Shown piece by piece: positions 10,129 through 39,722 of a stretch of DNA of 46,245 nt. Below the pieces are notes generated by a model. The model worked only from the letters and a program-made list of their open reading frames with translations, did not search any database and was not told where the DNA came from. Location of the stretch: the NCBI GenBank assembly GCA_017460045.1, contig JAFUBU010000056.1:1-46245 (forward strand). The letters run 5' to 3'. A program made the translations under genes and the position numbers. Numbering within the stretch: the stretch's first letter is position 1; each line of letters begins with the position of its first letter. This DNA comes from Candidatus Saccharimonadota bacterium. GTDB taxonomy: Bacteria; Patescibacteriota; Saccharimonadia; Saccharimonadales; Saccharimonadaceae.

Positions 10129-12114
10129 ATGGAAAAGAGTGGAGCGAAATCGATTTTGAAGGGTTTGAATCCGGCGCAAGTAGATGCGGCGGAGACGCTC
10201 GAAGGTCCGATTCTGATTTTGGCGGGGGCAGGCTCTGGTAAGACCAAGACCTTGACCGTCCGAATCGCGAATTTGATTGCGCACGGTGTACCGCCTAGAG
10301 ATATTTTGGCTGTTACTTTTACCAATAAAGCGGCGAAAGAAATGCGCAACCGTCTGTGGCGAATTTTGAACCCGGATACTCGCGAAGATGTCGCCGCGCC
10401 GAGACATTTTATGCCCTATATGGGGACGTTTCATGGGATTTGCGTCCGAATTTTACATATCGAATACGCCGCGGCGGGGCTTGACCCGAATTTTACAATT
10501 TACGATACCGAGGACCAGCTCGCGCTAATTAAACGCATCATGAAAGATTTACATATCGACAACAAGGCGGTTAAGCCGAAGCTGGTTCAGTCGATTATTT
10601 CGCAGTCGAAAAACGCCGGGCTTAGTCCGGAGGATTATGAGGCGACTTGTTACTATCCGAACCAACGAGCGGCGGCGAAGATTTATGCGCGCTACGAAGT
10701 CGAAAAACGCCGGGCTTCGGCGCTGGATTTTGACGATTTATTGCTCGAGACGGCGCGGCTATTTCGGGAGAACAAGCCGATACGCGAAAAGTGGCGCAAG
10801 CGATTTCAACATATTTTAGTCGACGAGTACCAGGACACTAACCATATTCAATATGAGCTAATTCGGATGTTAGTTAATGAGAAGCGAAATATTTGCGTCG
10901 TCGGGGACGACTGGCAATCGATTTATTCTTGGCGCGGAGCGGATTTTACTAACATTTTGAACTTCGAGCGAGATTTTCCGGGAGCAAAGGTCGTCAAGCT
11001 CGAGCAGAATTACCGCTCGACTGGAAATATTTTGAAGGCCTCGCAGAAAATTATTACCAAAAATAAGACGCGGACCGATAAGGAGCTCTTTACCGAGGCG
11101 GGAGACGGCGAGCCGGTCGAGATCGAGAGTTTGGCGGATGAAACGCAGGAAGCGGGGTATGTCGCGATGAAAATCCTCGAGATGAAACGAAAATATTCCG
11201 ACTTTGCGATTCTCTACCGGACCAACGCCCAATCTTACACATTTGAAAAAGCGTTTATTACGGCGAAAATTCCGTATAAAATCGTCGGCGGGGTACGTTT
11301 CTACGACCGGAAGGAGGTCAAAGACGTCCTCGCGATTTTGAAAGTATTAGTCAACCCGGCAGACAGGGTCGCGCTCGAGCGAGTCGTCGGGAACGTACTT
11401 TTGGGGATTGGAGCGGCGAGCCTGGCGAAAATCCTCGACCGACTTTCGGCGCTAGAGCTAGCGGGACGAGCGAACGAAAACCCGCTGACCGAGACGAGTA
11501 TTCTGGAAGGGCTGACGGCGAAAGCGCGCAACGCTTTTTCGCGGCTACAGAACTTCATTCGGACGACCGACCTCGAAAATACCTCGCCGGTCGAAATTAT
11601 CAATCGAGCGATTTCCTATTTTGAGTTTGCGAAGTTGCTCGACGACGGAACGCCGAGCGGTCAAGAGCGAATCGAAAACCTCTCGGTCCTCGCATCGAAC
11701 GCGGCGCCGTACGAGTCGCTCGAAGAGTTTTTAGCGGACGCGGCTTTGATGTCGTCGGCGGACGAAGAGACTTCGAAAAATTCGGTGACGCTAATGACGC
11801 TCCACGCGGCGAAGGGACTAGAATTTCCGGTCGTTTTTGTCGTCGGAATGGAAGACGGGTTATTCCCGAGCGCGAGATGCGTCGAGGACGAAAACGGGCT
11901 AGAGGAGGAGCGGCGGCTCGCCTACGTCGGGATGACGCGGGCGGAAGAAAAACTGTTTTTGACCTATGCGAAGTCGAGGTTTACATTCGGCTCGCGCGCC
12001 TATACTGAGCCGTCGCGATTTTTGCTCGAGCTCGGATACAATCCGTATGGGGCGAACGACTACGAAGATGACCCATTTCCAGATGACGTGCCAGTTTATA
12101 ACTATTCGTATTAG
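10129..12114 (+). CDS. pcrA: ATP-dependent DNA helicase PcrA/UvrD
   Basis: SF1 motifs LAGAGSGKT, TFTNKAA, VDEYQDTN, VGDDWQSIYSWRGA, LEQNYRS, MTLHAAKGLEF and EEERRLAYVGMTRA. Confidence 0.95.
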   Translation: MEKSGAKSILKGLNPAQVDAAETLEGPILILAGAGSGKTKTLTVRIANLIAHGVPPRDILAVTFTNKAAKEMRNRLWRILNPDTREDVAAPRHFMPYMGTFHGICVRILHIEYAAAGLDPNFTIYDTEDQLALIKRIMKDLHIDNKAVKPKLVQSIISQSKNAGLSPEDYEATCYYPNQRAAAKIYARYEVEKRRASALDFDDLLLETARLFRENKPIREKWRKRFQHILVDEYQDTNHIQYELIRMLVNEKRNICVVGDDWQSIYSWRGADFTNILNFERDFPGAKVVKLEQNYRSTGNILKASQKIITKNKTRTDKELFTEAGDGEPVEIESLADETQEAGYVAMKILEMKRKYSDFAILYRTNAQSYTFEKAFITAKIPYKIVGGVRFYDRKEVKDVLAILKVLVNPADRVALERVVGNVLLGIGAASLAKILDRLSALELAGRANENPLTETSILEGLTAKARNAFSRLQNFIRTTDLENTSPVEIINRAISYFEFAKLLDDGTPSGQERIENLSVLASNAAPYESLEEFLADAALMSSADEETSKNSVTLMTLHAAKGLEFPVVFVVGMEDGLFPSARCVEDENGLEEERRLAYVGMTRAEEKLFLTYAKSRFTFGSRAYTEPSRFLLELGYNPYGANDYEDDPFPDDVPVYNYSY

Positions 12115-12279
12115 AAGGCGAAATAAATACTTTTTGTCGCCCCAGTCTCACTCAAAAATGTCATACGCTGGACCGCCGGCGGAACCGCCCTTCGGGCGAA
12201 CCCGTCGGGGTCGTCAGGAATATACATTTTCTCGTTCGCAGGTGGAAATGTCGACAAAAAGTGTTTATTCTCGCCTTCT
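12113..12279. repeat. Long rod-like palindromic element between convergent pcrA and murA
   Basis: Imperfect ~27-bp terminal IR (12113-12139/12252-12279), inner stems, and apical hairpin CGCCC-TTC-GGGCG. Confidence 0.8.
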
Positions 12280-12282
12280 CTA

Positions 12283-13827
12283 TCAAATCCCTGTTAATGG
12301 GTGGACATCTGCACCGAGATGGCGCAACCTGGCGGCGAAATCTTGGTAGCCGCGGTTGATCGGGTAGACGTTGCGGAGGACGGAGGTCCCGGGAGCGGCA
12401 AGCATCGCGATTAAGATTACGACGCTCGGGCGAAGAGCCGGAGGCGCGACGAGCTCGGCGGGGCGCCAGTTGGTCGGACCCTCGATATAGACGCGGTGGG
12501 CGTCGAGGAGTTCGACTTTAGCGTTTAAGTTGCTCAGCTCAGTCGTATAGACGGCCCGGTTTTCAAAAACCCAATCGTGGATCAAGGTTCGACCCTCGGC
12601 GGTCGCGGCAATAACGGAGAAGAAAGGGAGGTTGTCGATATTAAGACCCGGGAACGGGAGAGGGTGGATTTTATCGACCGGCGCGACGAGGTCGGATTTC
12701 TTGACGGTTAAATCAACGAGGCGAGTATAGCCATTATGCGAAAGGTATTCCGGCGAGACTTCGATTTTCGCGTGCATATCCTTTAATACCTCAAGTTCGT
12801 ATTCCAAGAACTCAATCGGCGCGCGCGTAATTGTAATCTCGGAACGGGTCGCGAGGGCGGCGGCAATAAACGACATCGCCTCAATCGGGTCTTCGGACGG
12901 CGAATAGTCGACGTCGGTATCGATTTCTTCCTTGCCCTCGACCTTGAGGGTCGTCGTACCAATACCGGAAATCTTTACGCCAAGCTTTCTCAGATAGAAG
13001 CAAACGTCTTGGACCATATAGTTCGGCGAAGCGCCGACGATAATCGTCTTCCCGGGATAGCGAGCAGCGGCCATCAAGATATTTTCAGTTACGGTATCGC
13101 CGCGCTCGGTCAGAACAATCCGACGGTCCGGACGGCCTTGAAGTTTCTTGACGGTAATTTCATAAAAACCGCTATTTTTCTCGGCGTCGACGTTGAGGCC
13201 GAAAGAATCGAGAGCCTTGAGATGGGGCTCGACCGTCCGCGTCCCAAGCGAACAACCGCCGGCATAGGGGAGACGGAACTTTTCGTAAGCATGGAGTAGC
13301 GGGCCCATAAACATAATAACCGAGCGAGTTTTCCGAGCGGCGTCGATATTCATTTCGTCGAGCTTCAATTCGCGTGGTGGTATAATTTCGAGGTCGCGCT
13401 TGCGGTTAATCCAGTGGCACTTAACGCCGATGCTCTCGAGGACTTCGACGATACGGAAGACTTCCTCGATACGCGCAAGATGATGAAAAGTCGTTTTGCC
13501 GGAGTTGACAAGCGAGGCGCAGAGAAGACCGACCGCGGCATTTTTCGAGGTATAAGTCGTAATTTCGCCGGAGAGTTCTTTGCCGCCGTTGATGCGGAGA
13601 GACTGGGTCGTAGAGGTATTAATCGACAAAATCGGCGAGCCGAAAAAGCTCGAAAGTTTGCTGACCATCTCGAGAGAGATATTTTGGCCGCCCTTCTCGA
13701 TACGATGGATTGCGGACTGGGACGTACCGATAGCCTCGGCAAGCTCGCTCTGGGTCAAGCCTTTTTCTAGGCGCATACGCGCAATAACGGAGCCAATAGC
13801 CTCCTGATAACTCTGCTGTTTTTTCAT
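12283..13827 (-). CDS. murA: UDP-N-acetylglucosamine 1-carboxyvinyltransferase with N-terminal XRE-type HTH
   Basis: HTH RLEKGLTQSELAEAIGTSQSAIHRIEKG, then MurA motifs SKNA, AGGCSLGTR (catalytic Cys), PFPG, FENR and INRGY. Confidence 0.92.
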   Translation of the reverse strand: MKKQQSYQEAIGSVIARMRLEKGLTQSELAEAIGTSQSAIHRIEKGGQNISLEMVSKLSSFFGSPILSINTSTTQSLRINGGKELSGEITTYTSKNAAVGLLCASLVNSGKTTFHHLARIEEVFRIVEVLESIGVKCHWINRKRDLEIIPPRELKLDEMNIDAARKTRSVIMFMGPLLHAYEKFRLPYAGGCSLGTRTVEPHLKALDSFGLNVDAEKNSGFYEITVKKLQGRPDRRIVLTERGDTVTENILMAAARYPGKTIIVGASPNYMVQDVCFYLRKLGVKISGIGTTTLKVEGKEEIDTDVDYSPSEDPIEAMSFIAAALATRSEITITRAPIEFLEYELEVLKDMHAKIEVSPEYLSHNGYTRLVDLTVKKSDLVAPVDKIHPLPFPGLNIDNLPFFSVIAATAEGRTLIHDWVFENRAVYTTELSNLNAKVELLDAHRVYIEGPTNWRPAELVAPPALRPSVVILIAMLAAPGTSVLRNVYPINRGYQDFAARLRHLGADVHPLTGI

Positions 13828-13856
13828 ACTAAAATTATATCACGAGATGAATATTT

Positions 13857-16208
<2,352 letters not shown>

Positions 16209-16229
16209 AGGGTTATTATATCACAAAAT

Positions 16230-17339
16230 CTAGTTTTCGGCGGGCTCGACCGGGGCGGTCGGCTCGACCGGCTCGGTAGGCTGGCCCTCGGTAGAATTCG
16301 GCTCAGTCGGAGCCGGCTCGGCGGCAGGCTCGGCTTGAGGAGCGTCGGCCGGCGTCTCGGTAGCTTCGCCTTCGGCCTTGGTCTCGGTCTTAGCCTCGAT
16401 GATGATACCTTTAGTGTCGTTGATACCGTTACCGGTAACGTCGTAGTGTTTCCCCTCGGCGATTTTAATACCGGAGACGTTCAAAATACCGGTCCCGCCG
16501 TCGATAGTTAAGTCGCCCTCGGAATAAATCGAAGTAAAGGTCTCCGGGGCGGTAACGGCGAGGGTATTTTCGGTATCGTCGTCGAGGACGAGCGTAAGTT
16601 TATTCTCGGAGAAGTTGGAAATAGCGGAAGCGCCGGTCGCAGTAATCGAAACGTTGTCGAGATAAAGCGTCACTCCGCCCGGGGCGTTGATTTTAACCGG
16701 GAAAGTCGTAGTACCGGTTAAGATATAATGGCTCGCCTCGGTAATTTGAATCTCGGTTTCAAACGTCGAAAGGTCGATTACGGTAGCGGTCTGGCGCGGG
16801 TCGACATACTGGGGCTGGGCGGTATTTTCGGAATTGTTGGCGTCGGAGGCACTAGGCTGGGCAAAGAGAGCGATAAGGACTCCGGCCGTAACAATAATAA
16901 TCGGTATTAAGATAATCAAGAGAATAATGGCTTTATTGAGGCCATGTTTCGGCATATTCGTCTCGGCCGGAATACTACTCGGGTCGGGGAGATTACTCGC
17001 CTCGCGAGCGGCCGACATCTGTTCTTTGATGCGAGAATATTCATTTGCCTTGTTCATAGTCGGCATCGTAGCCGGGCGCGGCGCGGTCGGGCGCGGAGTC
17101 GGCTCGGCGGTCGGAACTTCGGCGGTAAAGGTCTCGCGCGGAGTCGCCGGACGAGAAGACGCAAAGGGGTCTTGGCTCGCGGTCGGGGCGGGTCGAGCCG
17201 AGCTCATACTCGGGGTCGGACTCGGGGTCGAACTCGGGGTCTGGCTCGGCGGGGCTACTCTCGAGGTCTCGGAGGGCGCGGCAGAACCAAAACTATCTTT
17301 AATAATATCATCTGCAATGTTGTTTAACTCTTTATCCAT
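16230..17339 (-). CDS. Single-pass membrane protein with Pro/Ser-rich N-terminus and a probable Cthe_2159/DUF4353-like beta-helix domain
   Basis: TM helix followed by ITEASHYILTGT..VTLYLDNVSIT..LTLVLDDDTENTL..IYSEGDLTIDGGTGILNV, recognised by eye; acidic Pro-rich tail. Confidence 0.65.
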   Translation of the reverse strand: MDKELNNIADDIIKDSFGSAAPSETSRVAPPSQTPSSTPSPTPSMSSARPAPTASQDPFASSRPATPRETFTAEVPTAEPTPRPTAPRPATMPTMNKANEYSRIKEQMSAAREASNLPDPSSIPAETNMPKHGLNKAIILLIILIPIIIVTAGVLIALFAQPSASDANNSENTAQPQYVDPRQTATVIDLSTFETEIQITEASHYILTGTTTFPVKINAPGGVTLYLDNVSITATGASAISNFSENKLTLVLDDDTENTLAVTAPETFTSIYSEGDLTIDGGTGILNVSGIKIAEGKHYDVTGNGINDTKGIIIEAKTETKAEGEATETPADAPQAEPAAEPAPTEPNSTEGQPTEPVEPTAPVEPAEN

Positions 17340-17346
17340 AAGCTTA

Positions 17347-17919
17347 TTATACCAAGCTCGGAAGATTTTGTAAATCTTTTATGGAATTAATCTCGTCAAA
17401 TCGCTCGAGATGGAGATGTTTAGCGTCCGGGCGACCTTTCATAGCCTTAAGCTCCTCGAGCGTAACTTCTAGGACCTCGATTTCTTCGCCGCCCTGGTCA
17501 AGAGACTGTTCGGTTTCGGATTCAAAATCGGTCGCGACGAAAGTATAAATAATTCGGTCTTCCTTGGACTCCCTCTGTTCGGCGGAAATTAGTTTCCAGT
17601 TTTTGAAGGAAAGGCCGGTTTCCTCTTTTAACTCTCTTTTGGCGGCCTCAAGCTCGGTCTCCTCCTCGTTTTCATGGCGGCCGCCGGGGAAGCTGTAGAA
17701 CCAGTCGGTATCCGGCTGGCGCTGTCGTTCGATGACGAGTTTGTCGTCTTTTATTGCAAAAATTACAACGGTATCTTCGCGTCTGAGCATCTCAAAAGTC
17801 TCGATTCGGCCGTCGAACATTTTTTGAGGCCACTCGTAGACCTTGAAAATTTTACCGTCGTAGACTTTAGTGGCATTTTCGGGGATAAGCCGAGCGTCTT
17901 TTGGAATATAACTTCTCAT
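17347..17919 (-). CDS. NUDIX hydrolase
   Basis: Nudix box GGRHENEEETELEAAKRELKEETG; overlaps the stop of the upstream gene. Confidence 0.9.
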   Translation of the reverse strand: MRSYIPKDARLIPENATKVYDGKIFKVYEWPQKMFDGRIETFEMLRREDTVVIFAIKDDKLVIERQRQPDTDWFYSFPGGRHENEEETELEAAKRELKEETGLSFKNWKLISAEQRESKEDRIIYTFVATDFESETEQSLDQGGEEIEVLEVTLEELKAMKGRPDAKHLHLERFDEINSIKDLQNLPSLV

Positions 17920-18965: not shown

Positions 18966-19070
18966 TAGAATAATTATACCACATCGGCCGGGGTTTGGCG
19001 GTAGATTGGCGGTCGCCGGGGTTTATGTTTGACGTGGCTACTTGCGCGAGTTGGTCGTGGCTAGCTGCGG

Positions 19071-19265: not shown

Positions 19266-19333
19266 TATATATATTGTATCACAAGTTGGGGATTTTAGGG
19301 AGCGGCGATGCAACGGACAGACTGACCGAAGTA

Positions 19334-19527
19334 CTGGTAAGTTTGCCTCGTGCGCATTCGCGCACGAGACGTCTTGGTCTGGTTGCAAGCAACCAGACCA
19401 GTCTCGGGCGCTCGGAGAAAGTAGCTACACGCTACTTTCTTGAAAATTCGCCAAAAACAAAAATAGAAGAGCAAGCTCTTCATTTTTTTACTCTGGTAAG
19501 TTTGCCTCGTGCGCATTCGCGCACGAG
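19334..19527. repeat. Two identical 35-bp REP-like hairpin repeats
   Basis: CTGGTAAGTTTGC-CTCGTGCGC-ATTC-GCGCACGAG at 19334-19368 and 19493-19527, with another hairpin TGGTCTGGTTGC-AA-GCAACCAGACCA between them. Confidence 0.85.
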
Positions 19528-19540
19528 TTTGCCTTTCCAA

Positions 19541-19560
19541 AAACTTCCGCAGGAAGTTTT
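19541..19560 (-). terminator. Probable terminator of tRNA-Pro
   Basis: AAACTTCC-GCA-GGAAGTTT hairpin immediately 3' of the tRNA CCA. Confidence 0.55.
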
Positions 19561-25051: not shown

Positions 25052-25098
25052 AAGAATATTATAGCATAGATTGGGAGAAAAGCTTCCTGATGCGGCAG

Positions 25099-25206
25099 GG
25101 GCTAAAGCAACTCAGTTTGCGAGTCTGACAGTAGCAAGAAGCAAATCTAAGGTTCGCGAACGCTACTCGCCGAATGGAGATGCCAAGGGCTAAAGCAACT
25201 CAGTTT
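25099..25206. repeat. 20-bp direct repeat
   Basis: GGGCTAAAGCAACTCAGTTT at 25099-25118 and 25187-25206. Confidence 0.75.
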
Positions 25207-25237
25207 ATGTGTCTGTTTCGCTTACGTCCGATGTCCG

Positions 25238-25427
25238 CCAGAAGAACTGCCGAGAGCTCCTTTTCCGAACGGGAGATTTCTCGCCCTTTGAAATTACAAC
25301 GCTCGGGCGGAGTCTCGCCCAAATTCCGCTTCGCTCCAGTTCGGGACTCAACTCCGCGAGCGTTGGTAATTTCTCGGGGAGAAATCTCTTTATTGTTCTG
25401 AAAAGGACTCCCGGCCAGTTCTTCTGG
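25238..25427. repeat. Long palindromic element, intergenic copy of the family inserted in sbcB
   Basis: The 133-bp core 25266-25398 aligns without gaps to 34815-34947 (15 differences by manual count). Imperfect outer IR CCAGAAGAACTG...CAGTTCTTCTGG. Confidence 0.9.
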
Positions 25428-25820
25428 AGGCCGCCCGGCGGAAGATCATTGTATCAAAAAATGCTCATTTTTTCAATGTTGTAATTTTGACTGTTGTAGA
25501 ATTGTATTTCTTACAAGCGGTTTGAGAGTGTTAGCCATAAGGTTAGTGAAACGGCCTAGCATCTTATGAAAAAGGTAGTGCTGGAGTTTTTCTGTAGGAT
25601 ATGATATTTGCCATAGGGCCTCATGAAAATCAAGGCTTGTTTTTGCTTAATCTGTCTCTTAGAATTAAGAGTGGGTCGGGAGTTGATTAGCTCGTCGGTA
25701 GAGAATGGGTATCGCTCCGCGGGTGGGGCAACAACTGCGAGAATACCGATTCTGGTCATTCTAGTTAAAACTAGGGTTTCCTGTTTTCGTGGGATTTACA
25801 ATGGAGAAAGGAGGACGAAC

Positions 25821-25904
25821 ATGACACTTTTAGATGTAAGAATCTTGAGGGCATTTCGCCTTCGTCTTGTTGTAACTCGCAACAAGAAACCTCGCCGTAA
25901 GTAG
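25821..25904 (+). CDS. Putative 27-aa basic peptide
   Basis: Strong SD AAGGAGG 6 nt before the ATG; MTLLDVRILRAFRLRLVVTRNKKPRRK*. Confidence 0.45.
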   Translation: MTLLDVRILRAFRLRLVVTRNKKPRRK

Positions 25905-25960
25905 CGAGGCCCCTAACCTGCAACCAAGAAGTGATATAATACTAGATAATATCATTTCTT
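25881..25960 (-). ncRNA. Putative ~80-nt antisense small RNA
   Basis: Minus-strand TTGCAA (25990-25995)-17 bp-TATAAT (25967-25972), then a CCTCGC/GCGAGG hairpin with a TTTCTTGTT tail at 25881-25909. Confidence 0.4.
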
Positions 25961-26022
25961 GGTTGCATTATACGATAAATGGTTATGATTTGCAAGACTT
26001 TTTACAAGATTTTAACGAGAAG

Positions 26023-30726: not shown

Positions 30727-30776
30727 CTCTGAGGTGGGCCCTTTTCTTAAAAGAAAAGGTCCCAACGCCAAAAGAA

Positions 30777-30819
30777 CTAGCTCTAAAATTAGGTCAGGCA
30801 AAGCCCGACCATAATTTTT
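30777..30819. repeat. Short REP-like hairpin repeat, copy 2
   Basis: CTAGCTCTAAAATTAGGTCAGGC-AAA-GCCCGACCATAATTTT; matches 10056-10096. Confidence 0.7.
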
Positions 30820-30830
30820 GTTTATGAATC

Positions 30831-31508: not shown

Positions 31509-31585
31509 CTTAAAAATGTCCTTTAATAATATGACCTTCGATATGTCTCTATTATAGTACTTATGTTTATAAAAAGCAAGAGTTT

Positions 31586-33262
31586 TTAGACATTTTTGAA
31601 AAGAATTTTTTTCAATTTGGCTAAAATCGGCTTGGCCTCGGGAAGATTTAGGAAAGAACAGGAGACGACATAGGCGATAAACGAGACGAGCGAAATAAGT
31701 ACGAACTTCGGGACGGTAATAAAGACGGAGTCGTCGGTCGAGCGAAGCGGGAAGAACTTGACGAAGCTATAAGCGACGCAACCAGTAATTGTCGCCGCGA
31801 AGAGCATTTTGGCGAAGGCGACCCAGAACTCGCGGTTGAAGAGCTGATGGCTGGACTTAAAATGGAGCAAGCCGAGGAGAATAATAATTTCGAGTACGGC
31901 GCCGATAGACTGGGCCCAGCCGAGACCGTCCGGGCCAAAGCCCCAAATCGAAAAGAGGACGGCGAGGACGGTCGAGAGGCCGACCGCAATAATCGAAACG
32001 ATAAAGGGAGTCCTAGTATCCTGGCGAGCGTAGAAGCCGCGCGAGGCGATATGGAAAACCGAGCGAGCAAAAATCGCGAGGATAAGCGTCCCGAGGACGC
32101 TCGCAATAAGCGGGTCGCCGCCGTTTGTAATAAACGAAACGACGTAGCCGCGCGCGAAATAGGCGATCGTCGCGACGGGGAGCGAAATCCAGATAATCAT
32201 CCGTAGAGCGCGACGAAAGGTCGCGTAAAACTTCGACTCTTCCCCCTTGACGATTTCCTCGGTCAGCTGGGGAAAATAGGCGGTCGAGAGAGCGACGCCG
32301 ATTAAGTTAACCGGCATTTGGTGGAGCGAGGAGGCCTGTTGGTAGCTCCGGAGCGCACCCGCGCCCATCCGCGAGGAGAGGTTGGTATTGACGATACCGT
32401 TAACGTAGTCGATTCCCTGGTCGAGCGAGCGGGCGGGAAGAAGCTTTAAGACGCTCTTGAAACCATGGTTTTTCCAGTAGATTTTGAAGCGGTAGTCGAA
32501 GCCGAGGCCAATCAAGCCGACGAGCGAAATAATAACTTGGAGGACGGCGCCAAAGACGACGCCGAGCGCGACACCCATAATACCGCCGCCGAAAAGCTGG
32601 ACACCGAAGATATTGATACCGCCGGTAAACCAGGTAATACCAATCAAAATCCCGATATTGTAGACCGCCGGGGCGAGCGCGTAAAAGACGAAGCGCCCGA
32701 CCGCCTGTTGAATCGAGGCGAGGACGGTCGCGATAGACATCAAGAACGGGTTAATCGCGATAACGCGCATCATGTTAATCGCGAGAATCGTCCCCGGCTC
32801 GTCGAGACCCGGGCCGACAACATAGCGGACGAGCGGTTCGGCAAAAACCATCATCAAGATACTGGCGACAAAAGTAATCAGAGCGAAAAGGTTAATTAGG
32901 CTACTCGAAAGCTCCCAGGCGGATTTTTTGTTGCCCTTGACGAGGCGCTCGTTGAAAACCGGGATAAACGAGACCGCGAGCGCGCCGGAGGTTAAAATAA
33001 AGAACATAAAGTCGGGGATAGTAAACGCGGCGGTATAGGCGTCGATACCGGTCGGGTAGGTATCAAGATAGTAAGAGTTTAAGAGGCGGTCGCGGAAGAT
33101 ACCGAGGAGGGCGGAAACGAGCGTCGAAGAACTTAAAATTACCGCCGCGACTTTTATCGAGAGGCGAGAATTCGCAATCGCGACGACCGACTTAAACTTC
33201 GAGCTTCTGCGCTTTTTGGGCGCGTTCTTTGGGAGCTCCTGATCAACGACTTGACTATTCAT
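31586..33262 (-). CDS. murJ: Lipid II flippase MurJ (MviN)
   Basis: LGIFRDRLL, DAYTAAFTIPD, GALAVSFIPVF and RGFYARQDTRTP; many TM helices. Confidence 0.93.
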   Translation of the reverse strand: MNSQVVDQELPKNAPKKRRSSKFKSVVAIANSRLSIKVAAVILSSSTLVSALLGIFRDRLLNSYYLDTYPTGIDAYTAAFTIPDFMFFILTSGALAVSFIPVFNERLVKGNKKSAWELSSSLINLFALITFVASILMMVFAEPLVRYVVGPGLDEPGTILAINMMRVIAINPFLMSIATVLASIQQAVGRFVFYALAPAVYNIGILIGITWFTGGINIFGVQLFGGGIMGVALGVVFGAVLQVIISLVGLIGLGFDYRFKIYWKNHGFKSVLKLLPARSLDQGIDYVNGIVNTNLSSRMGAGALRSYQQASSLHQMPVNLIGVALSTAYFPQLTEEIVKGEESKFYATFRRALRMIIWISLPVATIAYFARGYVVSFITNGGDPLIASVLGTLILAIFARSVFHIASRGFYARQDTRTPFIVSIIAVGLSTVLAVLFSIWGFGPDGLGWAQSIGAVLEIIILLGLLHFKSSHQLFNREFWVAFAKMLFAATITGCVAYSFVKFFPLRSTDDSVFITVPKFVLISLVSFIAYVVSCSFLNLPEAKPILAKLKKILFKNV

Positions 33263-33299
33263 CTCATATTATTATAGCACAATGTGTTATAATTGTTCT

Positions 33300-33935
33300 A
33301 TGGTTGGGCGTAAAAAAACACGTGCAGAAATTATCATCCGGACCTCTTGTATCGCTATTTTTATAAATCTAATTTTAGTCGGGATAAAGATTTTTATCGG
33401 ACTAGTTTCAAGCTCGATTGCGGTAGTACTCGACGGGCTGAACAACTTGACCGACTCAATTTCCCTAGTCGTAACCATCATCGGCGCGAAACTGTCGCGA
33501 AAATATGAACGTGTTGAATATTTTACAACAATCGTGATTGCGGCGATGGTCTTGATAGCAGGGACTTTGGCGGGACATGAGGCATTCGAAAAAATCCTAC
33601 GGCCGGAGCATACCGAGTTCTCGGTTGCTGCGCTGGTTGCGATTGGGTTAGCGGTAGTCGCAAAGCTCTTACTAGGTCGCTACGTCGGACGCGTAGGAGA
33701 GAAGGTCGACTCTAGTAGTCTAAAGGCTATTAGCAAAGATTCCCTACTAGACGTAATCCTATCCTTCGGGACGCTAGTCGGGGCGGGGCTAAGCTATTAT
33801 TTTGGAATAGAGATCGGGGGATTTATCGGTCTTTTGATTTCGATTTTTATCGTCGCCATGGGCATCAATATCATGATAGAGGCAATCCGGCTCTTCGTCA
33901 AAGCGCCATCTAGGAAAAAACGACGCAAACGCTAG
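33300..33935 (+). CDS. Cation diffusion facilitator family transporter (TM domain only)
   Basis: SSSIAVVLDGLNNLTD signature, ERVEY and SLKAISKDSLLD. Start set to ATG 33300, 6 nt after TGTTATAAT. Confidence 0.85.
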   Translation: MVGRKKTRAEIIIRTSCIAIFINLILVGIKIFIGLVSSSIAVVLDGLNNLTDSISLVVTIIGAKLSRKYERVEYFTTIVIAAMVLIAGTLAGHEAFEKILRPEHTEFSVAALVAIGLAVVAKLLLGRYVGRVGEKVDSSSLKAISKDSLLDVILSFGTLVGAGLSYYFGIEIGGFIGLLISIFIVAMGINIMIEAIRLFVKAPSRKKRRKR

Positions 33936-33940
33936 CGCGA

Positions 33941-34165
33941 CTATTTGCGGTTAAAGAGGACGAGGCCAAGCGGAAGGGCCATCAAGACCAAAATAGAAAT
34001 ACCGCGAGTCAACGAGGCGGCGTCGGGGCTGATGAAAATCAGGGTGTAAGCGTGGAAAGAAAGCAGGATAAAAACCGGGACGGCGACGATAACGAAGCCG
34101 AGCGAAAGTAGCGTCAAAACGCGATTTGGCTGTTTAACCCTCTTTAATGCCTTCTTTGTACTCAT
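33941..34165 (-). CDS. Small two-TM membrane protein
   Basis: 74 aa with two hydrophobic helices; TGGTATAAT 6 nt upstream. Confidence 0.7.
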   Translation of the reverse strand: MSTKKALKRVKQPNRVLTLLSLGFVIVAVPVFILLSFHAYTLIFISPDAASLTRGISILVLMALPLGLVLFNRK

Positions 34166-34238
34166 GCTCGCATTATACCATAGATTTGATATTTTTTCAA
34201 TAGTATTTTATAGCATAAGCTCGTTGAGCGGATGTTAG

Positions 34239-35792
34239 CTAATAGTCGACGCTAGCAAGAGACTGGGCCCAGAGGAGAAGCTCCTCGACGAGGCTCGGAT
34301 CGACGTCGGGGCGGTTCGAGAGAGCTTGTAGCTCCTTCTCGAAAGAGACCGACTGCCGATTTAGTCGAGCGAGACGGTATTTTTCCCAATCTTTTTGCTC
34401 TTCTTCGGAGAGAGTATCGGGGAAATTCTTAGCCTTATAGTGGAGGAGGAGCGGTTCGAGGCGGGGATCGGTAAACTCGGGGTGGAGATCGGCGAGCTGG
34501 TTTTTAGTCGCCGCGCGGACGAGACCGCAAAGGTCGCGATCCTGATCGCCCAGGAAGCCGTCGTAGAGGGCGGACTCGGGGTCGGGCGCCTCCGGGAACT
34601 CCGGCTTGGCCTCGTCAATAGCGCGCGCCATTTCGGCGAACTCGGGATGTTTCAAAAGCGCCTTGAGGTTTTTCTCGACCGTATCTTTGTCGAGGCCGAT
34701 CCTCCGCCAGCCATCGTTTTTCTCCAAAACGCCGAGCGGCGCAACCGCCGGACAACGGTTGTAGCGAAGTTCTTTGAGCTTGGGATACAGGTGGAATGTT
34801 GCTGAAGGGTCTTGCGAACGGGAGATTTCTCGCCCTTCAAAATCACAACACTCGGTCGGACCTTCGCCCAAATTCCGCTTCGCTACAGTTCGGGACTCAG
34901 GCCCGCGAGTGTTAGTGATTTCTCGGGGAGAAATCTCTTTATTGTTCGCAAGGCCCTTCAGCCAACATTCCTCCGGGTCATATCTCAAATCCCACACCAA
35001 AATGTTGCCGGTCTTGCTCGGGGCGATAGGAAAAGCGACGGTAGTCTTGTCGAACTCGCTCGAGTAGCGGCCCGAGGCGTAGACAAAGGGCTTTGGCCGG
35101 TCGAGGTTGATGAGGCGCTGGACGAGCTTTTTGTCGCGTAGCTTAAAGAGGTAGTTATAGAGGTCGGGTTGGTGGGTCTTGATGAGCCTCGTAACTTCGA
35201 TGAGCGCGACGACGTCGGCGAGGGCGTCGTGGGCGTGTTCATGCTCGATACCGTTTAGCTTCGTAATCAACTCGAGGCGATTGGTCTTGACCTCGACCAC
35301 GATTTTTTCGCCGTCTTTCTCGATTTCCTTTTCCTGGGTCGGCCAGTTAATCCCCTCCGGCCTCAAGGCCCTTGTCAAACGGACAACGTCGAGCAAGTCC
35401 CAGCGGCTACGGCCGTCCTTCCATTGCCACTCGTAGGGGTCGTAAAAATTGCGCCAGAAGAGATGTCTCATAAATTCATCGTCGAAGCGGACGGAGTTGT
35501 AGCCAAGGGCGCAAGTCCCCGGCGTAAAAATCTCGTCGGTCACATAGCGGCAGAACTCGGCTTCAGAAAGGCCGTCTTGTCTAGTCTGTTGGGGGGTAAT
35601 TTTCGTTACGGCGATAGCGCCAGGAGAAGGCAAAGTATCGTCGGCTAGCTCGACCAGCAGATTAACCGGCTCGCCGAGCGGGTTTAACTCGAGGTCGGTA
35701 CGTTGTCCGGCGAATTGCATAATCCGATCTTCGCGCGGGGAAAGGCCCGAAGTTTCGAGGTCGTAGAAGAAAAAACTATGGGGATCGTTCAT
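34239..35792 (-). CDS. sbcB: Exodeoxyribonuclease I carrying an in-frame palindromic insert
   Basis: DEDDh motifs FYDLETSG, GYNSVRFDDE and HAHDALADV, plus SRWDLLD, LRPEGINWP, YNRCP and LYDGF. Confidence 0.93.
   Translation of the reverse strand: MNDPHSFFFYDLETSGLSPREDRIMQFAGQRTDLELNPLGEPVNLLVELADDTLPSPGAIAVTKITPQQTRQDGLSEAEFCRYVTDEIFTPGTCALGYNSVRFDDEFMRHLFWRNFYDPYEWQWKDGRSRWDLLDVVRLTRALRPEGINWPTQEKEIEKDGEKIVVEVKTNRLELITKLNGIEHEHAHDALADVVALIEVTRLIKTHQPDLYNYLFKLRDKKLVQRLINLDRPKPFVYASGRYSSEFDKTTVAFPIAPSKTGNILVWDLRYDPEECWLKGLANNKEISPREITNTRGPESRTVAKRNLGEGPTECCDFEGREISRSQDPSATFHLYPKLKELRYNRCPAVAPLGVLEKNDGWRRIGLDKDTVEKNLKALLKHPEFAEMARAIDEAKPEFPEAPDPESALYDGFLGDQDRDLCGLVRAATKNQLADLHPEFTDPRLEPLLLHYKAKNFPDTLSEEEQKDWEKYRLARLNRQSVSFEKELQALSNRPDVDPSLVEELLLWAQSLASVDY
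34793..34971. repeat. Palindromic element inside the sbcB coding sequence
   Basis: Imperfect terminal IR 34793-34819/34944-34971; core 34815-34947 is homologous to intergenic 25266-25398; reading frame preserved. Confidence 0.9.
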
Positions 35793-35830
35793 ATAATTAT
35801 TATACCATCATCTTGTACCGCAACCAAGAA

Positions 35831-35985
35831 AAGAGGAGTATCTTTATTTGCGAGTCTGGTTTCACTCACGTCCGATTCTCAATCGATTTTTCGGGCAAGG
35901 CACCCTCATCTGAGAGGGCCCGCCTTGCGAAAAATCTCTTCGAATCGGGTTCGTTCAAGGCCTCGCAAATAAAGATACTCCTCTT
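35831..35985. repeat. Long rod-like palindromic element upstream of the sbcB promoter
   Basis: Perfect 24-bp terminal IR AAGAGGAGTATCTTTATTTGCGAG (35831-35854/35962-35985); nested stems CCGATTC/GAATCGG, GATTTTTCG/CGAAAAATC, GCAAGGC/GCCTTGC and CCCTC/GAGGG. Confidence 0.9.
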
Positions 35986-36006
35986 CTTTAGCGACCTGAT
36001 AAGCTT

Positions 36007-36031
36007 AAACCCCCGCGCCGAAGCGCGAGGG
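36007..36031 (-). terminator. Probable intrinsic terminator
   Basis: Minus strand CCCTCGCGC-TTCG-GCGCGGGGG-TTT just after the stop at 36036. Confidence 0.6.
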
Positions 36032-36035
36032 TAAT

Positions 36036-36422
36036 TTAATTTATTTTTTTGGGTCCATGTCCATGCTTGATATGCCAATTTAAGATAAAGGCAAACCATT
36101 TATGAAACATGGTTGCGACGGAGTATAAAATTACTCCGTATGCAATGGCGAAGTAAATGGTTAAAAACCATTTCCAGCCGGCAGTATCAAACCGGATGCC
36201 CGGCTCGATGATGTTGATGTACTCTAAGTTCCAAAGCGCCGCAAGCAAGGCGGCGGCTACGAGTGCGCCAACTACGGCTGCGCCGATAATAATCGGCCTG
36301 CCTTCGCCGTCCTGCAGTTTTTTGTTTTTTTCGTCATACGTAAAATTCGTAATGGCGAAATATAAAACTAAGACTGCGGGTACTAAGAGCGCAATTGCGC
36401 TCAGAATTTTTATTGTCATCAT
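36036..36422 (-). CDS. Hypothetical three-TM membrane protein
   Basis: Hydrophobic ORF. SD AGGAGG precedes MMTIKIL at 36422, which is preferred over 36476. Confidence 0.7.
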   Translation of the reverse strand: MMTIKILSAIALLVPAVLVLYFAITNFTYDEKNKKLQDGEGRPIIIGAAVVGALVAAALLAALWNLEYINIIEPGIRFDTAGWKWFLTIYFAIAYGVILYSVATMFHKWFAFILNWHIKHGHGPKKIN

Positions 36423-36546
36423 ATCTTCTCCCCTCCTATGATGGTGCGTGTCCTCCGGAAGTCCTATTACCTCCATTGAACATTACCTATATTATACCAC
36501 ACCTTTGCGAAAAAAGCAATAGTTTTTTGGCAATAACAGGGGTAGG

Positions 36547-37257
36547 CTAATTGCTCGAGGAGCTATAATAGGCGGCGTAGAGGCGTTCCATGATTTCGTT
36601 GGACTCTTTACCGAGTTTAATCATTTTTTCGTCATCGAACGGGAGGACGACGAACTTCAACGGGGAGTTGGTCCCGCCGCAGATTTCTTGGTCTTCACCG
36701 TAGGCGAGCTCGCCGGGGATAGTAATTTCGCGGACGCCGCCGAGTTTCATGCCAATCACGCCCTGGTTCCAGCCTTCGATCAGGCCGTTCGCGGCGTAAA
36801 TCGGAGCTTTGAGCGAGGTCGGGTTTTCGGCGTCGTCAAACGAAGAGTCGAAGATCGACTCGTCGGCGCACCAGCCGATGTAGTAGGCGAGATAATCGGT
36901 ATCGTCAGCTTTAAGCTCGCGGCCGGTCCCCTCCTTTAGGTCGGTAGTTTTAAGCCCCTCCGAGTTGGCGGTCGTAGCATTATAACTTTTTACCTGAGAC
37001 TTATAGCCCTTAAAATCGTTGAAGTACTTCGACGAGAGCGTCTCGGCGTATTTGGAAATTTCGTCGGACTTCTTTTGGTACTCTTCTTCGATAGCGGTCA
37101 ACTCGGAATTGTCGCCGTCGGTCGAGTTAGTATTGGAATTTTTATTAGAGAGGACGATAGCGATATAGGTCGCGACAAACGAAAATACCATCAATACCGC
37201 AATAATAATAAATAGAATACGTTGCCTCCAGCTAGTCTTTAGAATATCTTGGTCCAT
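36547..37257 (-). CDS. Membrane-anchored FKBP-type peptidyl-prolyl isomerase
   Basis: N-terminal TM helix; FKBP motifs DLKEGTG, FDSS and LIEGWNQGVIGMKLGGVREITIPGELAYG. Confidence 0.9.
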   Translation of the reverse strand: MDQDILKTSWRQRILFIIIAVLMVFSFVATYIAIVLSNKNSNTNSTDGDNSELTAIEEEYQKKSDEISKYAETLSSKYFNDFKGYKSQVKSYNATTANSEGLKTTDLKEGTGRELKADDTDYLAYYIGWCADESIFDSSFDDAENPTSLKAPIYAANGLIEGWNQGVIGMKLGGVREITIPGELAYGEDQEICGGTNSPLKFVVLPFDDEKMIKLGKESNEIMERLYAAYYSSSSN

Positions 37258-39722
37258 TAAATTATTTCTCCGCTTACGGCCTTACAGGTCTCTTTAGTAA
37301 TTTTGTACATTATATCAGAAACCTCATCGCCGTTCAAGGTACGTTCGGGGTTGTTCAAGAGAAGATGGAAACTCAGATTCTTGGTTTTTTCAAGGTTTTC
37401 TTTAGGTTCGTAAATGGAAACTGGCTCGATTTTGTAAATCAGCCCAGTCTTTACGAGACCACGGTCGAGGGAGTCGTAGACTTTTTCGTACGGAGTATCT
37501 TGGGAGACCTTGATAGTTAAGTCGCGGCTAACGGACGGGAAGCGAGAGAAGCGGAGGTTTTTCGTCTTATTCTCAAGCGAGCGGTCGAGGTAATCGTCGA
37601 GCGTAATTTCGAAGTAGGCGACCGGGCCTTCTAGCTTGAACTTCCTGAGTAAGCTGTTTGCAAGCTGGCTCGTCCCGCACGGGTGTTGCGGGTCCTGCTG
37701 CGCACATCCCCATGAATCGTCGCTTGGGGACCCCGCACCCCAAGCTCCGCTTCTGGGGGCCCCGTGCGCATCACCCGCACCAGCCCGGCGAGGGTCACCA
37801 GCTTGCAATCCTAATTCCTTCATTAACTCAACATAGTAGGCCTTCGCCTTATAGTAGTCGCCAGTGACGGCGAGGGCAAGGTTGGTCTTCATGACCGGGA
37901 CGCCTTCGTTGTTTAGACCGTCGGATTTTTTGGCGACTTGGTTGATTTCGTAGAGGGCAAAATCTTTATAGCCGGCTTTTTGATTTTCTTGGACTTTTTC
38001 AAGAAGGCTCGGAGCGAGCGACTGGCGGAAACATTGGAGCTCCGGGGAAATCGAGTTGACGATTTCGTAAGAGTCTTTCGGGTCTTCGCCGAATTTTTCC
38101 TGGAGCGCTTTCGAGACGAAAGAATAGGTCAAGATTTCGTGGGCGTTTAAGCGGTCCGAAAGAATATCGCGGATACGATTTTTCAAAATACGCATCGGGT
38201 CGTCTCTCGCGCCGACGAAAGGACGAGTCGGGAAAGAGAGCGGGATATTATCGTAGCCGAGGAGGCGGCCGACCTCTTCGATGATGTCTTCTTTAATGTG
38301 TAAGTCCGTGCGCCAATAGGGGACTTTTACGGAGAGACCCTTTGCCCCGAGTTTCTCGCACATAAGCCCGACATTGGCGAGCGTCCTGACGATTAATTCT
38401 TCGGAGTAGTCGGTACCGAGGAGAGAGTTGATGTCGGCAACGGAAACCTCGATTGGAGGGATTTCGATCGGGGCGGGGTAGTAGTCGACGACCTCTAGCG
38501 GCTCGACGCCGAGCTCCTCAACCGCCTCGGAGAGAACGGCGAGAGTCTGGCCGGCGGGCTGGCCCTTAGTGAAGCGAGTAACCGCCTCGGAGAAGATGCC
38601 ATGTTTCATCTGGGTCTTGCGGAGATGATAAAGCGAGAAAGTCGCAGACTCGAGGATGATACAATTCGTCGTCTCGTCAATCGCGGTACTAGCTCCGCCC
38701 ATAGCGCCGGCGAGGGCGACCGGAGTATCGTTGCTAGTAATTAAGATATCATTTTCGTCGCATTCGATAGTTTTACCGTCGAGGAGCTCGAGCTTTTCGC
38801 CGTTTTTGGCGGCGCGGACGATAATTTTCGGCTCTTTAGCACCGCCTACTCTTACGAACTTTTCGTAGTCGAAAGCGTGGAGCGGCTGGCCGGTCTTTAG
38901 CATCAAGATATTAGTCAAGTCGACAATCGGAGAAATCGGGCGCATATCGGCCTTAATTAGGAAGACGTCGTCTTTAGTGAAATACTTTTCGCGCGGGGCG
39001 TCGGCAAAATCGACGACGGCGCAGGAGTAGCGAGGGCAAAGGTCCGAATCTATTATCTCGACGCTCAAGGCTAAAGAACCTCGAGGACGGGAGGCCTCTC
39101 GTCCTTCAAGCCCGCTCGGCTCTTCGAATTTGATACCTAGTATCCCGGCTACTTCGCGAGCGAAGCCAACGAGGCCGAAGCAATCGGGGCGGTGGGTAAG
39201 GGATTTGTTTTCGATATCGAGAATAATGTCGTTTAAGTCGAAGACTTCGGCGAAGGAAGCGCCGGGCTTGACCCCTGGCATCGCCGGGTCGATTTCAATA
39301 ATTCCCTCGTGGTCTTCGCCAAGGGCAAGCTCGTCGGCGGCGGCGAGCATCCCGCTACTCTCATAGCCACGGAGCTTCCTTGAGCCAATTTCAAACGGCT
39401 CGTCCGTCTCGAAAGTCGCCGGGACGACACAGCCAGGGGCGAGCCAAGCGGCGAACATATCGGCATGGACATTCGGAGCGCCACAGACGACCTGGACTAA
39501 ATCTTTCGAGCCGCAGTCGATTTGGCAAAGATGGAGATGGGTATCGGGAATAGGCTCACAGGAGACGACCTTGACGATTTTGACGCCCTTGTACTTTTCG
39601 CTCCAATCTTCCGAACCTTCGACCTCGACGAGACGAGCGCCAATGAGGCGAATAAGCTCCTCGGTCGAGAGGTCTTTCGGAATATCGACGTATTTTTTAA
39701 TTTCATTCAAACTAATTTTCAT
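37257..39722 (-). CDS. pheT: Phenylalanine-tRNA ligase beta subunit carrying an in-frame palindromic segment
   Basis: VVCGAPNV, LTHRPDC, GQPLHAFD, R.DL...DIIEEVGRLLGYDNI and SRFPSVSRDL; follows pheS. Confidence 0.95.
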   Translation of the reverse strand: MKISLNEIKKYVDIPKDLSTEELIRLIGARLVEVEGSEDWSEKYKGVKIVKVVSCEPIPDTHLHLCQIDCGSKDLVQVVCGAPNVHADMFAAWLAPGCVVPATFETDEPFEIGSRKLRGYESSGMLAAADELALGEDHEGIIEIDPAMPGVKPGASFAEVFDLNDIILDIENKSLTHRPDCFGLVGFAREVAGILGIKFEEPSGLEGREASRPRGSLALSVEIIDSDLCPRYSCAVVDFADAPREKYFTKDDVFLIKADMRPISPIVDLTNILMLKTGQPLHAFDYEKFVRVGGAKEPKIIVRAAKNGEKLELLDGKTIECDENDILITSNDTPVALAGAMGGASTAIDETTNCIILESATFSLYHLRKTQMKHGIFSEAVTRFTKGQPAGQTLAVLSEAVEELGVEPLEVVDYYPAPIEIPPIEVSVADINSLLGTDYSEELIVRTLANVGLMCEKLGAKGLSVKVPYWRTDLHIKEDIIEEVGRLLGYDNIPLSFPTRPFVGARDDPMRILKNRIRDILSDRLNAHEILTYSFVSKALQEKFGEDPKDSYEIVNSISPELQCFRQSLAPSLLEKVQENQKAGYKDFALYEINQVAKKSDGLNNEGVPVMKTNLALAVTGDYYKAKAYYVELMKELGLQAGDPRRAGAGDAHGAPRSGAWGAGSPSDDSWGCAQQDPQHPCGTSQLANSLLRKFKLEGPVAYFEITLDDYLDRSLENKTKNLRFSRFPSVSRDLTIKVSQDTPYEKVYDSLDRGLVKTGLIYKIEPVSIYEPKENLEKTKNLSFHLLLNNPERTLNGDEVSDIMYKITKETCKAVSGEII
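37658..37808. repeat. Palindromic element inside the pheT coding sequence
   Basis: Terminal IR TTGCAAGCTGG/CCAGCTTGCAA; nested stems TGCGGGT/ACCCGCA, TGCGCAC/GTGCGCA and GCTTGGGG/CCCCAAGC. Confidence 0.85.

What the first reader, a model, noticed from the sequence alone, without database searches (positions are those of the whole stretch)
12113..37808. Candidate system: structure-conserved palindromic mobile elements colonising intergenic DNA and protein loops
Five 150-190 bp fully base-paired rods occur within 26 kb: 12113-12279, 25238-25427, 34793-34971 (in sbcB), 35831-35985 and 37658-37808 (in pheT), plus smaller hairpin repeats. They share size, nested stems broken by + strand TCG/TCCGC/TCACTC bulges, and often a cGNAg-type tip on one strand (CCC-GAA-GGG, GC-GAA-GC). 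Established: cGNAg loops are unusually stable in ssDNA, ssDNA hairpins are substrates of HUH transposases (IS200/IS605 TnpA, RAYT), and in-frame palindromic inserts are known as Rickettsia palindromic elements. Inference: a family of non-autonomous elements that adds new peptide sequence to conserved enzymes. I do not know of a description in this lineage but could not search. No mobilising enzyme is in the window.
Basis: partly seen in the sequence, partly recalled or inferred. Interest (0 to 1): 0.75.

Follow-up and report, generated by a model that had tools for sequence, protein, structure and literature searches.

The report
Replication-oriented hairpin inserts with mirrored flanks
This tiny gut bacterium carries dozens of 110-250-base hairpin-shaped DNA inserts of several families, many read in frame inside essential genes; nearly all face one way relative to the chromosome's strand bias and end in a stem that is likely a mirror copy of neighbouring host DNA, which suggests an undescribed way of spreading as single-stranded DNA during replication.

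Summary
The five rods are real (z -6.5 to -11), but they belong to four families, not one. The 0.84 Mb Saccharimonadia genome holds about 70 such rods; 23 sit in frame in ORFs, mostly housekeeping genes (tyrS, valS, ileS, argS, polA, dnaX, gatA, der, sbcB, pheT). Sister genomes show the same sites empty or filled by other families, so these are insertion elements like Rickettsia palindromic elements (RPEs). Three features go further. (1) The strand with GA-rich loops lies on the C-rich chromosome strand in 58 of 63 copies, and in 23 of 23 callable copies in relatives. This holds even against gene direction, and that strand is likely the lagging-strand template. (2) The 'bulges' likely form tandem G·A pairs and GNA mini-hairpins, a DNA-type fold. 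(3) Each copy ends in its own roughly 21-30 bp stem. One arm carries host sequence, and a conspecific contig lacks the core plus one arm of the 35831 rod. The stem is therefore likely an inverted target duplication made by fold-back synthesis. No HUH, IS110 or IS1380 enzyme was found. Verdict: a new variant of RPE-like elements with an unidentified mover.

The parts
12113..12279 (-). E1, family B rod (core about 12140-12251), wedged between the stop codons of convergent pcrA/uvrD (+) and HTH-murA (-); GA-rich strand is minus; GNA-type tip on minus strand
   Evidence: z -6.5; 5 other near-complete copies at 89-93%, two with a 78-nt nested module; neighbours named
25089..25237 (-). Array of half-elements (arms and core ends of families C and D) abutting E2; the same units recur at the 3' ends of FISUMP genes on other contigs
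   Evidence: reading as remnants of nested insertions is inference
25238..25427 (-). E2, family A rod (core 25263-25398, outer arms 29 bp), intergenic, upstream of pgi
   Evidence: z -8.6
34793..34971 (-). E3, family A rod (core 34812-34947, arms 23 bp) in frame in sbcB (exonuclease I), aa 274-334
   Evidence: z -11.0; site empty in G107, G366, G368 and filled with an A core with different but paired arms in G020
35825..35965 (-). E4 inserted segment: family C core (about 35853-35965) plus the left arm, which is the reverse complement of the host arm; 3-nt direct microhomology at the ends
   Evidence: a 589-nt contig of run X1 with 5 differences joins 35824 to 35966; core 98-99% identical to two other copies with unrelated arms
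35966..35985 (-). E4 right arm, retained in the conspecific allele that lacks the element; likely host DNA
37658..37808 (-). E5, family H rod in frame in pheT, aa 639-689, in a short linker; predicted disordered loop
   Evidence: z -6.9; copies at 76-84% at other sites in G368, G116, G107; empty linker of about 10 aa in 16 of the 18 close homologues P0004-P0021 other than the E5-filled P0019 and one with a longer linker; pLDDT <50 at 643-682
34239..35792 (-). sbcB host gene, intact ORF of 517 aa
   Evidence: NCBIfam NF008746 above cut-off
37257..39722 (-). pheT host gene, intact ORF of 821 aa
   Evidence: TIGR00472 above cut-off; model mean pLDDT 84.5

Best explanation
[quoted passage not shown] Shown: multi-copy families, filled and empty sites, fixed orientation to the chromosome's strand skew, copy-specific paired arms, and host codons in one arm. 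Inferred steps: (1) the GA-rich strand folds into a rod held by tandem sheared G·A pairs and GNA mini-hairpins while it is the lagging-strand template; (2) the 90-140 nt core is joined to host DNA at a fork; (3) its free end, already paired at the base of the hairpin, primes fold-back synthesis along the adjacent host strand and rejoins the other flank through a few bases of microhomology, often losing some host bases; (4) frame-preserving insertions in tolerant loops survive, and later template switching keeps the arms complementary. The enzyme is not identified; host replication and repair proteins, or a trans-acting enzyme not assembled here, are the likeliest.
For: Orientation: GA strand on the C-rich strand in 58 of 63 copies (families A-D 42 of 42, F 10 of 11, tRNA-linked G 6 of 10) and in 23 of 23 callable copies in relatives (7 of 30 not callable). 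It holds against transcription: 6 of 7 in-frame F copies are antisense in head-on genes, and 6 intergenic D/F copies oppose the read-through transcript yet keep the C-rich strand. The C-rich strand carries 442 of 607 scored genes, including rpoB, tuf, fusA, rpsL, and in one-contig G027 majority genes diverge from the dnaA region. Fold: 39 of 59 pairs change on both sides in 17 family A copies, 18 of 18 in the outer helix; no G-U-type bias (923 Watson-Crick, 37 G·T on the GA strand, 25 on the other, 10 other of 995 cells). The lone pair between two GA steps in family F is complementary in 12 of 12 cleanly parsed copies of 16 (C-G 4, G-C 3, T-A 5). Arms: own-arm pairing 22-38 bp (A, 7 copies), 21-32 (C, 8 of 9), against cross-copy means of 6.3 and 1.3. 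The conspecific allele lacks core plus one arm of E4, with the inner breakpoint at the family boundary. Host-conserved codons lie in one arm at tatD, der, polA, rmlD, argS, and a tRNA 3' end forms one arm in L054.
Against: No mover found. The E4 allele is one contig of one run and could be an excision or deletion product; the retained arm is not conserved in sister species, so ancestry is not proven. Polarity of the host arm differs: 5' on the GA strand for A/C (E4, tatD, der, tRNA), 3' for F (polA, rmlD, argS), and conserved codons bias which arm can be recognised. The inner 10-13 bp of arms is family-typical (strongly so in B and H), so only the outer part is host-derived. G000's own dnaA-dnaN lie on the G-rich strand, unlike G004, G007, G011, so leading/lagging is inferred, not read from an origin. 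Covariation counts include related copies and may partly reflect template switching, not selection. Sheared G·A pairing was not measured.
Confidence: 0.55

Rival explanations
1. The cores insert by some route without making arms; the arms arise afterwards by ordinary quasipalindrome template switching that overwrites one flank with the reverse complement of the other, and selection keeps the version that spares conserved codons.
For: Explains why the host arm is on either side; arms keep co-varying after insertion at shared sites (sbcB, tatD, polA, der); no MutS found; single-sided changes are rare; template switching has a known strand bias (PMC7202029, passages read).
Against: Three C copies with 98-99% identical cores already have full, unrelated 22-32 bp arms; arm lengths cluster at 21-25 bp instead of tailing off; template switching would erase the GA loops, which are kept.
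Confidence: 0.22
2. REPIN/PATE-like elements moved in trans by an HUH (Y1/RAYT/TnpA) enzyme by peel-and-paste on the lagging-strand template; the E4 allele is an asymmetric excision footprint.
For: IS608 and ISDra2 target the lagging-strand template (PMC5027513, passages read); REPIN excisions are asymmetric (PMC3116915, passages read); GNA tips; Y1 enzymes exist in 24 of 369 genus genomes.
Against: No Y1 in G000 or in 5 of 5 relatives with family A; no candidate HUH nuclease among the 11 motif-bearing six-frame ORFs; flanks of 12 Y1 loci show no similarity to 8 family seeds; REPINs have conserved ends and a variable middle, the reverse of these rods; peel-and-paste does not duplicate the target (recalled).
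Confidence: 0.1
3. RNA-level elements copied by the resident DGR-type reverse transcriptases, or structured RNAs with a function in transcripts.
For: Three RTs and many FISUMP genes are present, with nested element arrays at FISUMP 3' ends; 13 of 16 in-frame family copies are sense; family G follows tRNA 3' ends.
Against: Orientation follows replication where the two conflict; no G-U bias; no adenine-specific variation (A 0.19, C 0.17, G 0.15, T 0.20); no Rfam match; GCGNAGC-type hairpins are far less stable in RNA (PMC13037366, passages read).
Confidence: 0.07
4. attC-like sites recombined as folded single strands by a resident tyrosine recombinase.
For: Families A and D end in AAC...GTT with an asymmetric loop and often one extra base in the arm; arrays of hybrid half-sites exist; two tyrosine recombinases are present.
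Against: The integron-integrase model scores 136.6 bits against a cut-off of 265 and the best hits are XerC/D; no cassette arrays; B, C, F lack the triplet; arms outside the triplet stay complementary, which attC crossover would break (recalled).
Confidence: 0.06

Closest known systems
Rickettsia palindromic elements (RPE; Ogata et al. 2000, as summarised in PMC10969869 and PMC3184786, passages read)
   Same: About 105-150 bp palindromic repeats of several families, about half of them in frame in unrelated housekeeping genes of a small host-dependent genome; no mover established in the passages read.
   Different: Different phylum, no sequence relation tested; here copy-specific outer stems with host codons, fixed replication-strand polarity, GA-loop architecture, nesting and reuse of one site by several families. 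The passages read do not report these for RPEs, but the primary papers were not available.
REPINs and RAYT (Bertels and Rainey 2011, PMC3116915, passages read)
   Same: About 100-bp hairpins with compensatory changes, asymmetric loss footprints, proposed ssDNA route.
   Different: REPINs have invariant ends, are extragenic and have a RAYT; here the ends vary, the middle is conserved, many copies are intragenic and no Y1 enzyme was found.
IS200/IS605 elements and ORF-less derivatives (PMC5027513, passages read)
   Same: One active strand placed on the lagging-strand template; hairpin recognition.
   Different: No TnpA, no subterminal hairpin pair around cargo, and an inverted copy of the flank that these elements do not make (recalled).
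Classical bacterial MITEs (RUP, Correia, ERIC; PMC10969869, PMC3184786, passages read)
   Same: Short, protein-less, fold into long stem-loops, multi-copy.
   Different: MITEs have conserved terminal inverted repeats shared with an IS and direct target duplications; here the terminal repeats differ between copies, with only a 3-nt direct microhomology at the one resolved site.
Quasipalindrome template switching; coding palindromes of Nematomorpha mitochondria (PMC7202029 passages; PMC6649704 search listing only)
   Same: One arm of an inverted repeat copied from the other, also inside coding DNA.
   Different: Those processes perfect an existing palindrome; here a shared mobile core sits between the arms.

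Membership tests
RPE-like intragenic palindromic element (descriptive class) | Multi-copy palindromic repeat of about 100-200 bp | tested here: met
   63 family-assigned copies in 6 families plus H and singles
RPE-like intragenic palindromic element (descriptive class) | In-frame insertion in unrelated housekeeping genes, absent from orthologues | tested here: met
   23 host ORFs in G000; empty orthologues at the 11 genes compared
RPE-like intragenic palindromic element (descriptive class) | Insert falls in a surface loop and leaves the fold intact | tested here: met
   PheT model only: insert pLDDT <50, mean 84.5; a prediction, one protein
Rickettsia RPE-1 to RPE-10 proper | Sequence homology to RPE families | not tested
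   No RPE sequences were fetched; family A was found in only 6 of 369 genomes of its own genus
Classical MITE | Conserved terminal inverted repeats shared among copies and with an IS | tested here: not met
   Outer arms pair within a copy but not across copies; only the inner 10-13 bp is family-typical; B arms are more conserved
Classical MITE | Direct target-site duplication flanking the whole element | tested here: not met
   At E4 the allele without the element keeps one arm, and the 3-nt repeat flanks core plus one arm; one site only
Classical MITE | Cognate transposase in genome or lineage | tested here: inconclusive
   IS110 0 of 1, IS1380 0 of 369, IS91-type 0 of 1 with a silent control; other DDE families not searched; assembly is in 94 contigs
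REPIN / IS200-IS605 non-autonomous element | Y1 (RAYT/TnpA) enzyme associated with the repeat | tested here: not met
REPIN / IS200-IS605 non-autonomous element | Active strand on the lagging-strand template | tested here: met
   58 of 63 and 23 of 23 on the C-rich strand; lagging-template assignment inferred
REPIN | Invariant ends with variable spacer, extragenic | tested here: not met
   Conserved core, variable ends, many intragenic
Integron attC site | Integron integrase and cassette array | tested here: not met
   copies are dispersed and in frame
DGR-copied element | Adenine-specific hypervariation among copies | tested here: not met
   (pairing constraints weaken this test)
Curated structured RNA | Rfam match | tested here: not met
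   only 3 tRNAs in the window

The most novel reading that the evidence does not exclude
A distinct class of mobile DNA: protein-less ssDNA rods built on sheared G·A pairs that insert at the replication fork and self-prime a roughly two-turn inverted duplication of their target, with no dedicated transposase of a known family. Each event would write 30-60 new codons, partly mirrored from the host gene itself, into essential proteins of Patescibacteria, and might explain how RPEs move.
Probability: 0.35. Interest if true: 0.9.

Novelty: new variant of a known kind. Interest (0 to 1): 0.72.

Why it matters
How RPE-like elements move and why they stay palindromic inside coding DNA has been open since 2000. 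Here the footprint is readable: fixed replication polarity, a DNA-type fold, an inverted rather than direct target duplication, and filled, empty and arms-only alleles among close relatives. That makes the mechanism testable by strain comparison and simple biochemistry. It also shows a 0.84 Mb 'streamlined' genome giving about 1.4% of its DNA to such elements (70 loci, 11.7 kb) and tolerating 40-80 aa inserts in tRNA synthetases, DnaX, PolA and GTPases. The repeats probably also explain the fragmented assemblies of this lineage. Six literature searches listed no paper describing such elements in Saccharimonadia; subscription journals are mostly outside that library. Other unchecked notes of this scan report like elements in other Patescibacteria, so the phenomenon is probably widespread.

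Tried and rejected
One family: rejected by BLAST. E5 replacing a conserved part of PheT: rejected; the 30-35 aa loss in the CLM domain is shared by the whole subclade and predates E5, and the lost segment is not elsewhere in the genome. Orientation caused by stop codons: rejected for A and B, whose other strand has more open frames. Autonomous partner: a 20-mer of family A gave 9 genome records, all Saccharibacteria, and the copies read were of ordinary size. Three patterns in viral contigs gave 8 chance matches; one pattern in metagenomes gave 2 partial matches. A short GA motif across 61 genomes was uninformative against its control. IS1380, suggested by earlier notes, was found in 0 of 369 genomes. 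No RNA holder was listed, which says nothing on expression. A joint inside E5 (37692 to 37781, depth 6.6, side 25) may be another family H copy and was not used. Small-share runs X2-X4 were not used for habitat or alleles. One literature search on DNA zipper motifs returned nothing relevant, so that motif is recalled. The RPE primary paper was not held. Gene calls in scripts were crude (hexamer-scored ORFs), and z-scores rest on 4-8 shuffles.
Full report
Source. The window is contig C94 of G000 (841,835 bases, 94 contigs, 97% complete, 3.7% contaminated). Named PheT homologues are Saccharibacteria, one labelled Nanosyncoccus, records sharing a family A 20-mer are ruminant-gut Saccharibacteria, and the best run is a gut metagenome. 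Two divergent der and two rlmD copies suggest some contigs come from a second population, so copy counts may be slightly high.

Observation. All five rods fold far better than shuffles. BLAST separates them into families B (E1), A (E2, E3), C (E4) and an apparent singleton E5; E5 has copies at other sites in three relatives and is called family H. Genome-wide, 99 of 174 folded candidates had z <= -4 (rough, includes some tRNAs); 70 loci of 100-340 nt had z <= -5, 11.7 kb in all. Seeded searches assigned 63 copies to A (7), B (6), C (10), D (19, some cut by contig ends), F (11) and G (10). Rfam gave only tRNAs.

In-frame copies. Besides sbcB and pheT, 21 ORFs carry a rod in frame. NCBIfam names them tyrS, mnmA, tatD, valS, der (2), dnaX, gatA, obg, rmlD, ileS, polA, murG, argS, topA, rsmD, rlmD (2), recX and two unnamed; tatD, murG, topA, rsmD, rlmD, recX, dnaX in part and one der fragment score below curated cut-offs. 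The D seed has stops in all six frames, and 0 of 19 D copies are in frame in G000. The PheT model is confident except for the insert.

Mobility. Family A occurs in 6 of 369 genus genomes. Orthologous sites are empty or filled by other families. gatA: C here, H in G116, A in G020, empty in five. valS: B here, other families in four, empty or short in four. mnmA: A here, H in G116 and G368, empty in two. tyrS, tatD, polA, der, sbcB and pheT are similar. Cores nest in each other and take 30-80 nt side modules. Arms-only palindromes without a core occur in G020 tatD, one G020 pheT allele and G003 polA.

Strand polarity. One strand of each family has purine-rich internal loops. It lies on the strand that is C-rich at fourfold-degenerate sites in 58 of 63 copies (A-D 42 of 42; F 10 of 11; G 6 of 10), and in 23 of 23 callable copies in relatives, with 7 of 30 not callable. 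If orientation merely tracked gene direction, 42 of 42 would have p = 1.6e-6 (copies are not fully independent). Where transcription and skew conflict, skew wins: 6 of 7 in-frame F copies are antisense in head-on genes, as expected since the F seed has stops in all three GA-strand frames, and 6 intergenic copies oppose read-through; one F copy opposes both. Family G is the exception: at least 5 of 10 copies abut tRNA 3' ends and follow the tRNA. The C-rich strand carries 442 of 607 scored genes and the ribosomal and polymerase genes found. In one-contig G027, majority genes diverge from the dnaA region, and dnaA is C-rich in three genus genomes. I infer that the GA strand is the lagging-strand template, equal in sequence to the nascent leading strand. 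Against: G000's own dnaA-dnaN are on the G-rich strand.

Fold. In 17 family A copies, 95% of cells pair and 39 of 59 pairs change on both sides; 0 of 500 shuffles reach this, and slid controls give 3-13 pairs (relatedness inflates such tests). Wobble pairs show no strand preference, unlike typical structured RNA (recalled). On the GA strand the loops read as GA steps facing GA steps around one or two Watson-Crick pairs. In family F the single enclosed pair was complementary in 12 of 12 cleanly parsed copies; 4 of 16 were dropped (one unparsed, one mis-parsed, two cut short by inserts). Tips of A and B vary between GAA and GTA, fitting GCGNAGC mini-hairpins, which are very stable in DNA and much less so in RNA (PMC13037366, passages read). 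The B tip could also be read as a UNCG loop on the other strand; the A tip cannot. That tandem sheared G·A and GNA/GGA zipper motifs are stable in DNA is recalled, not retrieved.

Arms. Each core is enclosed by a stem specific to its copy: 22-38 bp in A, 21-32 in C (one of 9 mis-anchored), 17-22 in D after trimming 4 bp, against cross-copy means of 6.3, 1.3 and 0.9. The inner 10-13 bp is family-typical, often followed by one extra base. Three C cores that are 98-99% identical have unrelated arms. A conspecific contig (589 nt, depth 15, 5 differences, 74 nt on the short side, 3-nt ambiguity, lengths leaving no extra letters) joins 35824 to 35966, dropping the E4 core and left arm and keeping the right arm. 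Its inner breakpoint falls within 3 nt of the family boundary seen by BLAST (35969). In genes, one arm encodes residues conserved in empty orthologues (tatD PDEA, der ILK, polA LAxQA, rmlD ML, argS KIA) and the other is its reverse complement. In L054 one arm is a tRNA 3' end. The host arm is 5' on the GA strand in A and C and 3' in F. At argS about 11 host codons were lost with the insertion.

Mechanism. The simplest route to core plus inverted flank is fold-back synthesis primed by the hairpin's own end, followed by rejoining through microhomology, on single-stranded DNA at the fork. Confidence 0.55. Later template switching probably maintains the arms in any case; as sole origin it gets 0.22, because young cores already have full arms of similar length. 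HUH, RT and tyrosine-recombinase routes lack their enzymes or signatures: Y1 0 of 1 and 0 of 5, 24 of 369 elsewhere with unrelated flanks in the 12 loci read; IS110 none; IS1380 0 of 369; three RTs that I read as DGR-type from recalled motifs and FISUMP genes, but no adenine bias; recombinases XerC/D-like. A fragmented assembly can hide a repeated transposase, and most DDE families were not searched.

Comparison and verdict. The elements work like RPEs in what they do to genes (PMC10969869, PMC3184786, passages read) and like IS200/IS605 and REPINs in strand use (PMC5027513, PMC3116915, passages read), but fail the membership tests for classical MITEs, REPINs and attC sites. Six searches listed no description in this lineage; supplements were not read. 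Unchecked notes from this scan describe like elements elsewhere; I had reached the arm and polarity results before seeing those. Novelty: new variant of a known kind; interest 0.72.

Noticed in passing
G000 genome-wide; G004, G007, G011, G027: Inverted GC skew: majority, presumably co-directional, genes are strongly C-rich at fourfold sites (about -0.5) and the minority G-rich.
   Followed up: partly
G000:C87:8756-11509 (L074): dnaA-dnaN lie on the G-rich strand with no skew switch in the contig, unlike three genus relatives; possibly a local inversion.
   Followed up: partly
window 37257-39722, aa about 635-690: PheT of this subclade lacks 30-35 residues of the CLM domain (the EPxxSA...GE segment kept in other genus members), independent of the insert.
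   Followed up: yes
window 43693-46185; G000 C73, C84, C30: Multi-copy FISUMP/Lcl surface genes with three reverse transcriptases that look DGR-type; nested element arrays sit at the FISUMP 3' ends and many contigs break there. TR/VR not mapped.
   Followed up: partly
window 19330-19560: Cluster of small perfect hairpins beside the 3' end of tRNA-Pro, with a 22-nt palindrome present twice (19347, 19506).
   Followed up: no
window 25620-25970: Second cluster of small hairpins between pgi and pilB, partly repeated on C62 and C91; run X1 has a joint 25729 to 25838.
   Followed up: no
window 4250-6693: Phosphoketolase split into two overlapping ORFs of 407 aa each.
   Followed up: no
window 12283-13827: MurA with an N-terminal HipB-like helix-turn-helix domain.
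   Followed up: no
G000 C31:6745, C89:5336, C77:2658, C71:13501, C24:2117: Family G rods sit directly behind tRNA CCA ends and follow tRNA orientation; at C89 a direct repeat of the tRNA 3' end flanks the cluster, as at att sites.
   Followed up: partly
G000 C67 and C75; C57 and C59: Two der copies 78-86% identical, with reciprocal filled and empty or part-deleted sites, and two rlmD copies; likely a second population in the bin.
   Followed up: partly
G000: No MutS found.
   Followed up: no
L006 (G012 sbcB), L047, L048 (pheT aa about 459), L167, L180, L181, L226: Further, unassigned rod families at the same permissive loops in other genus genomes.
   Followed up: no
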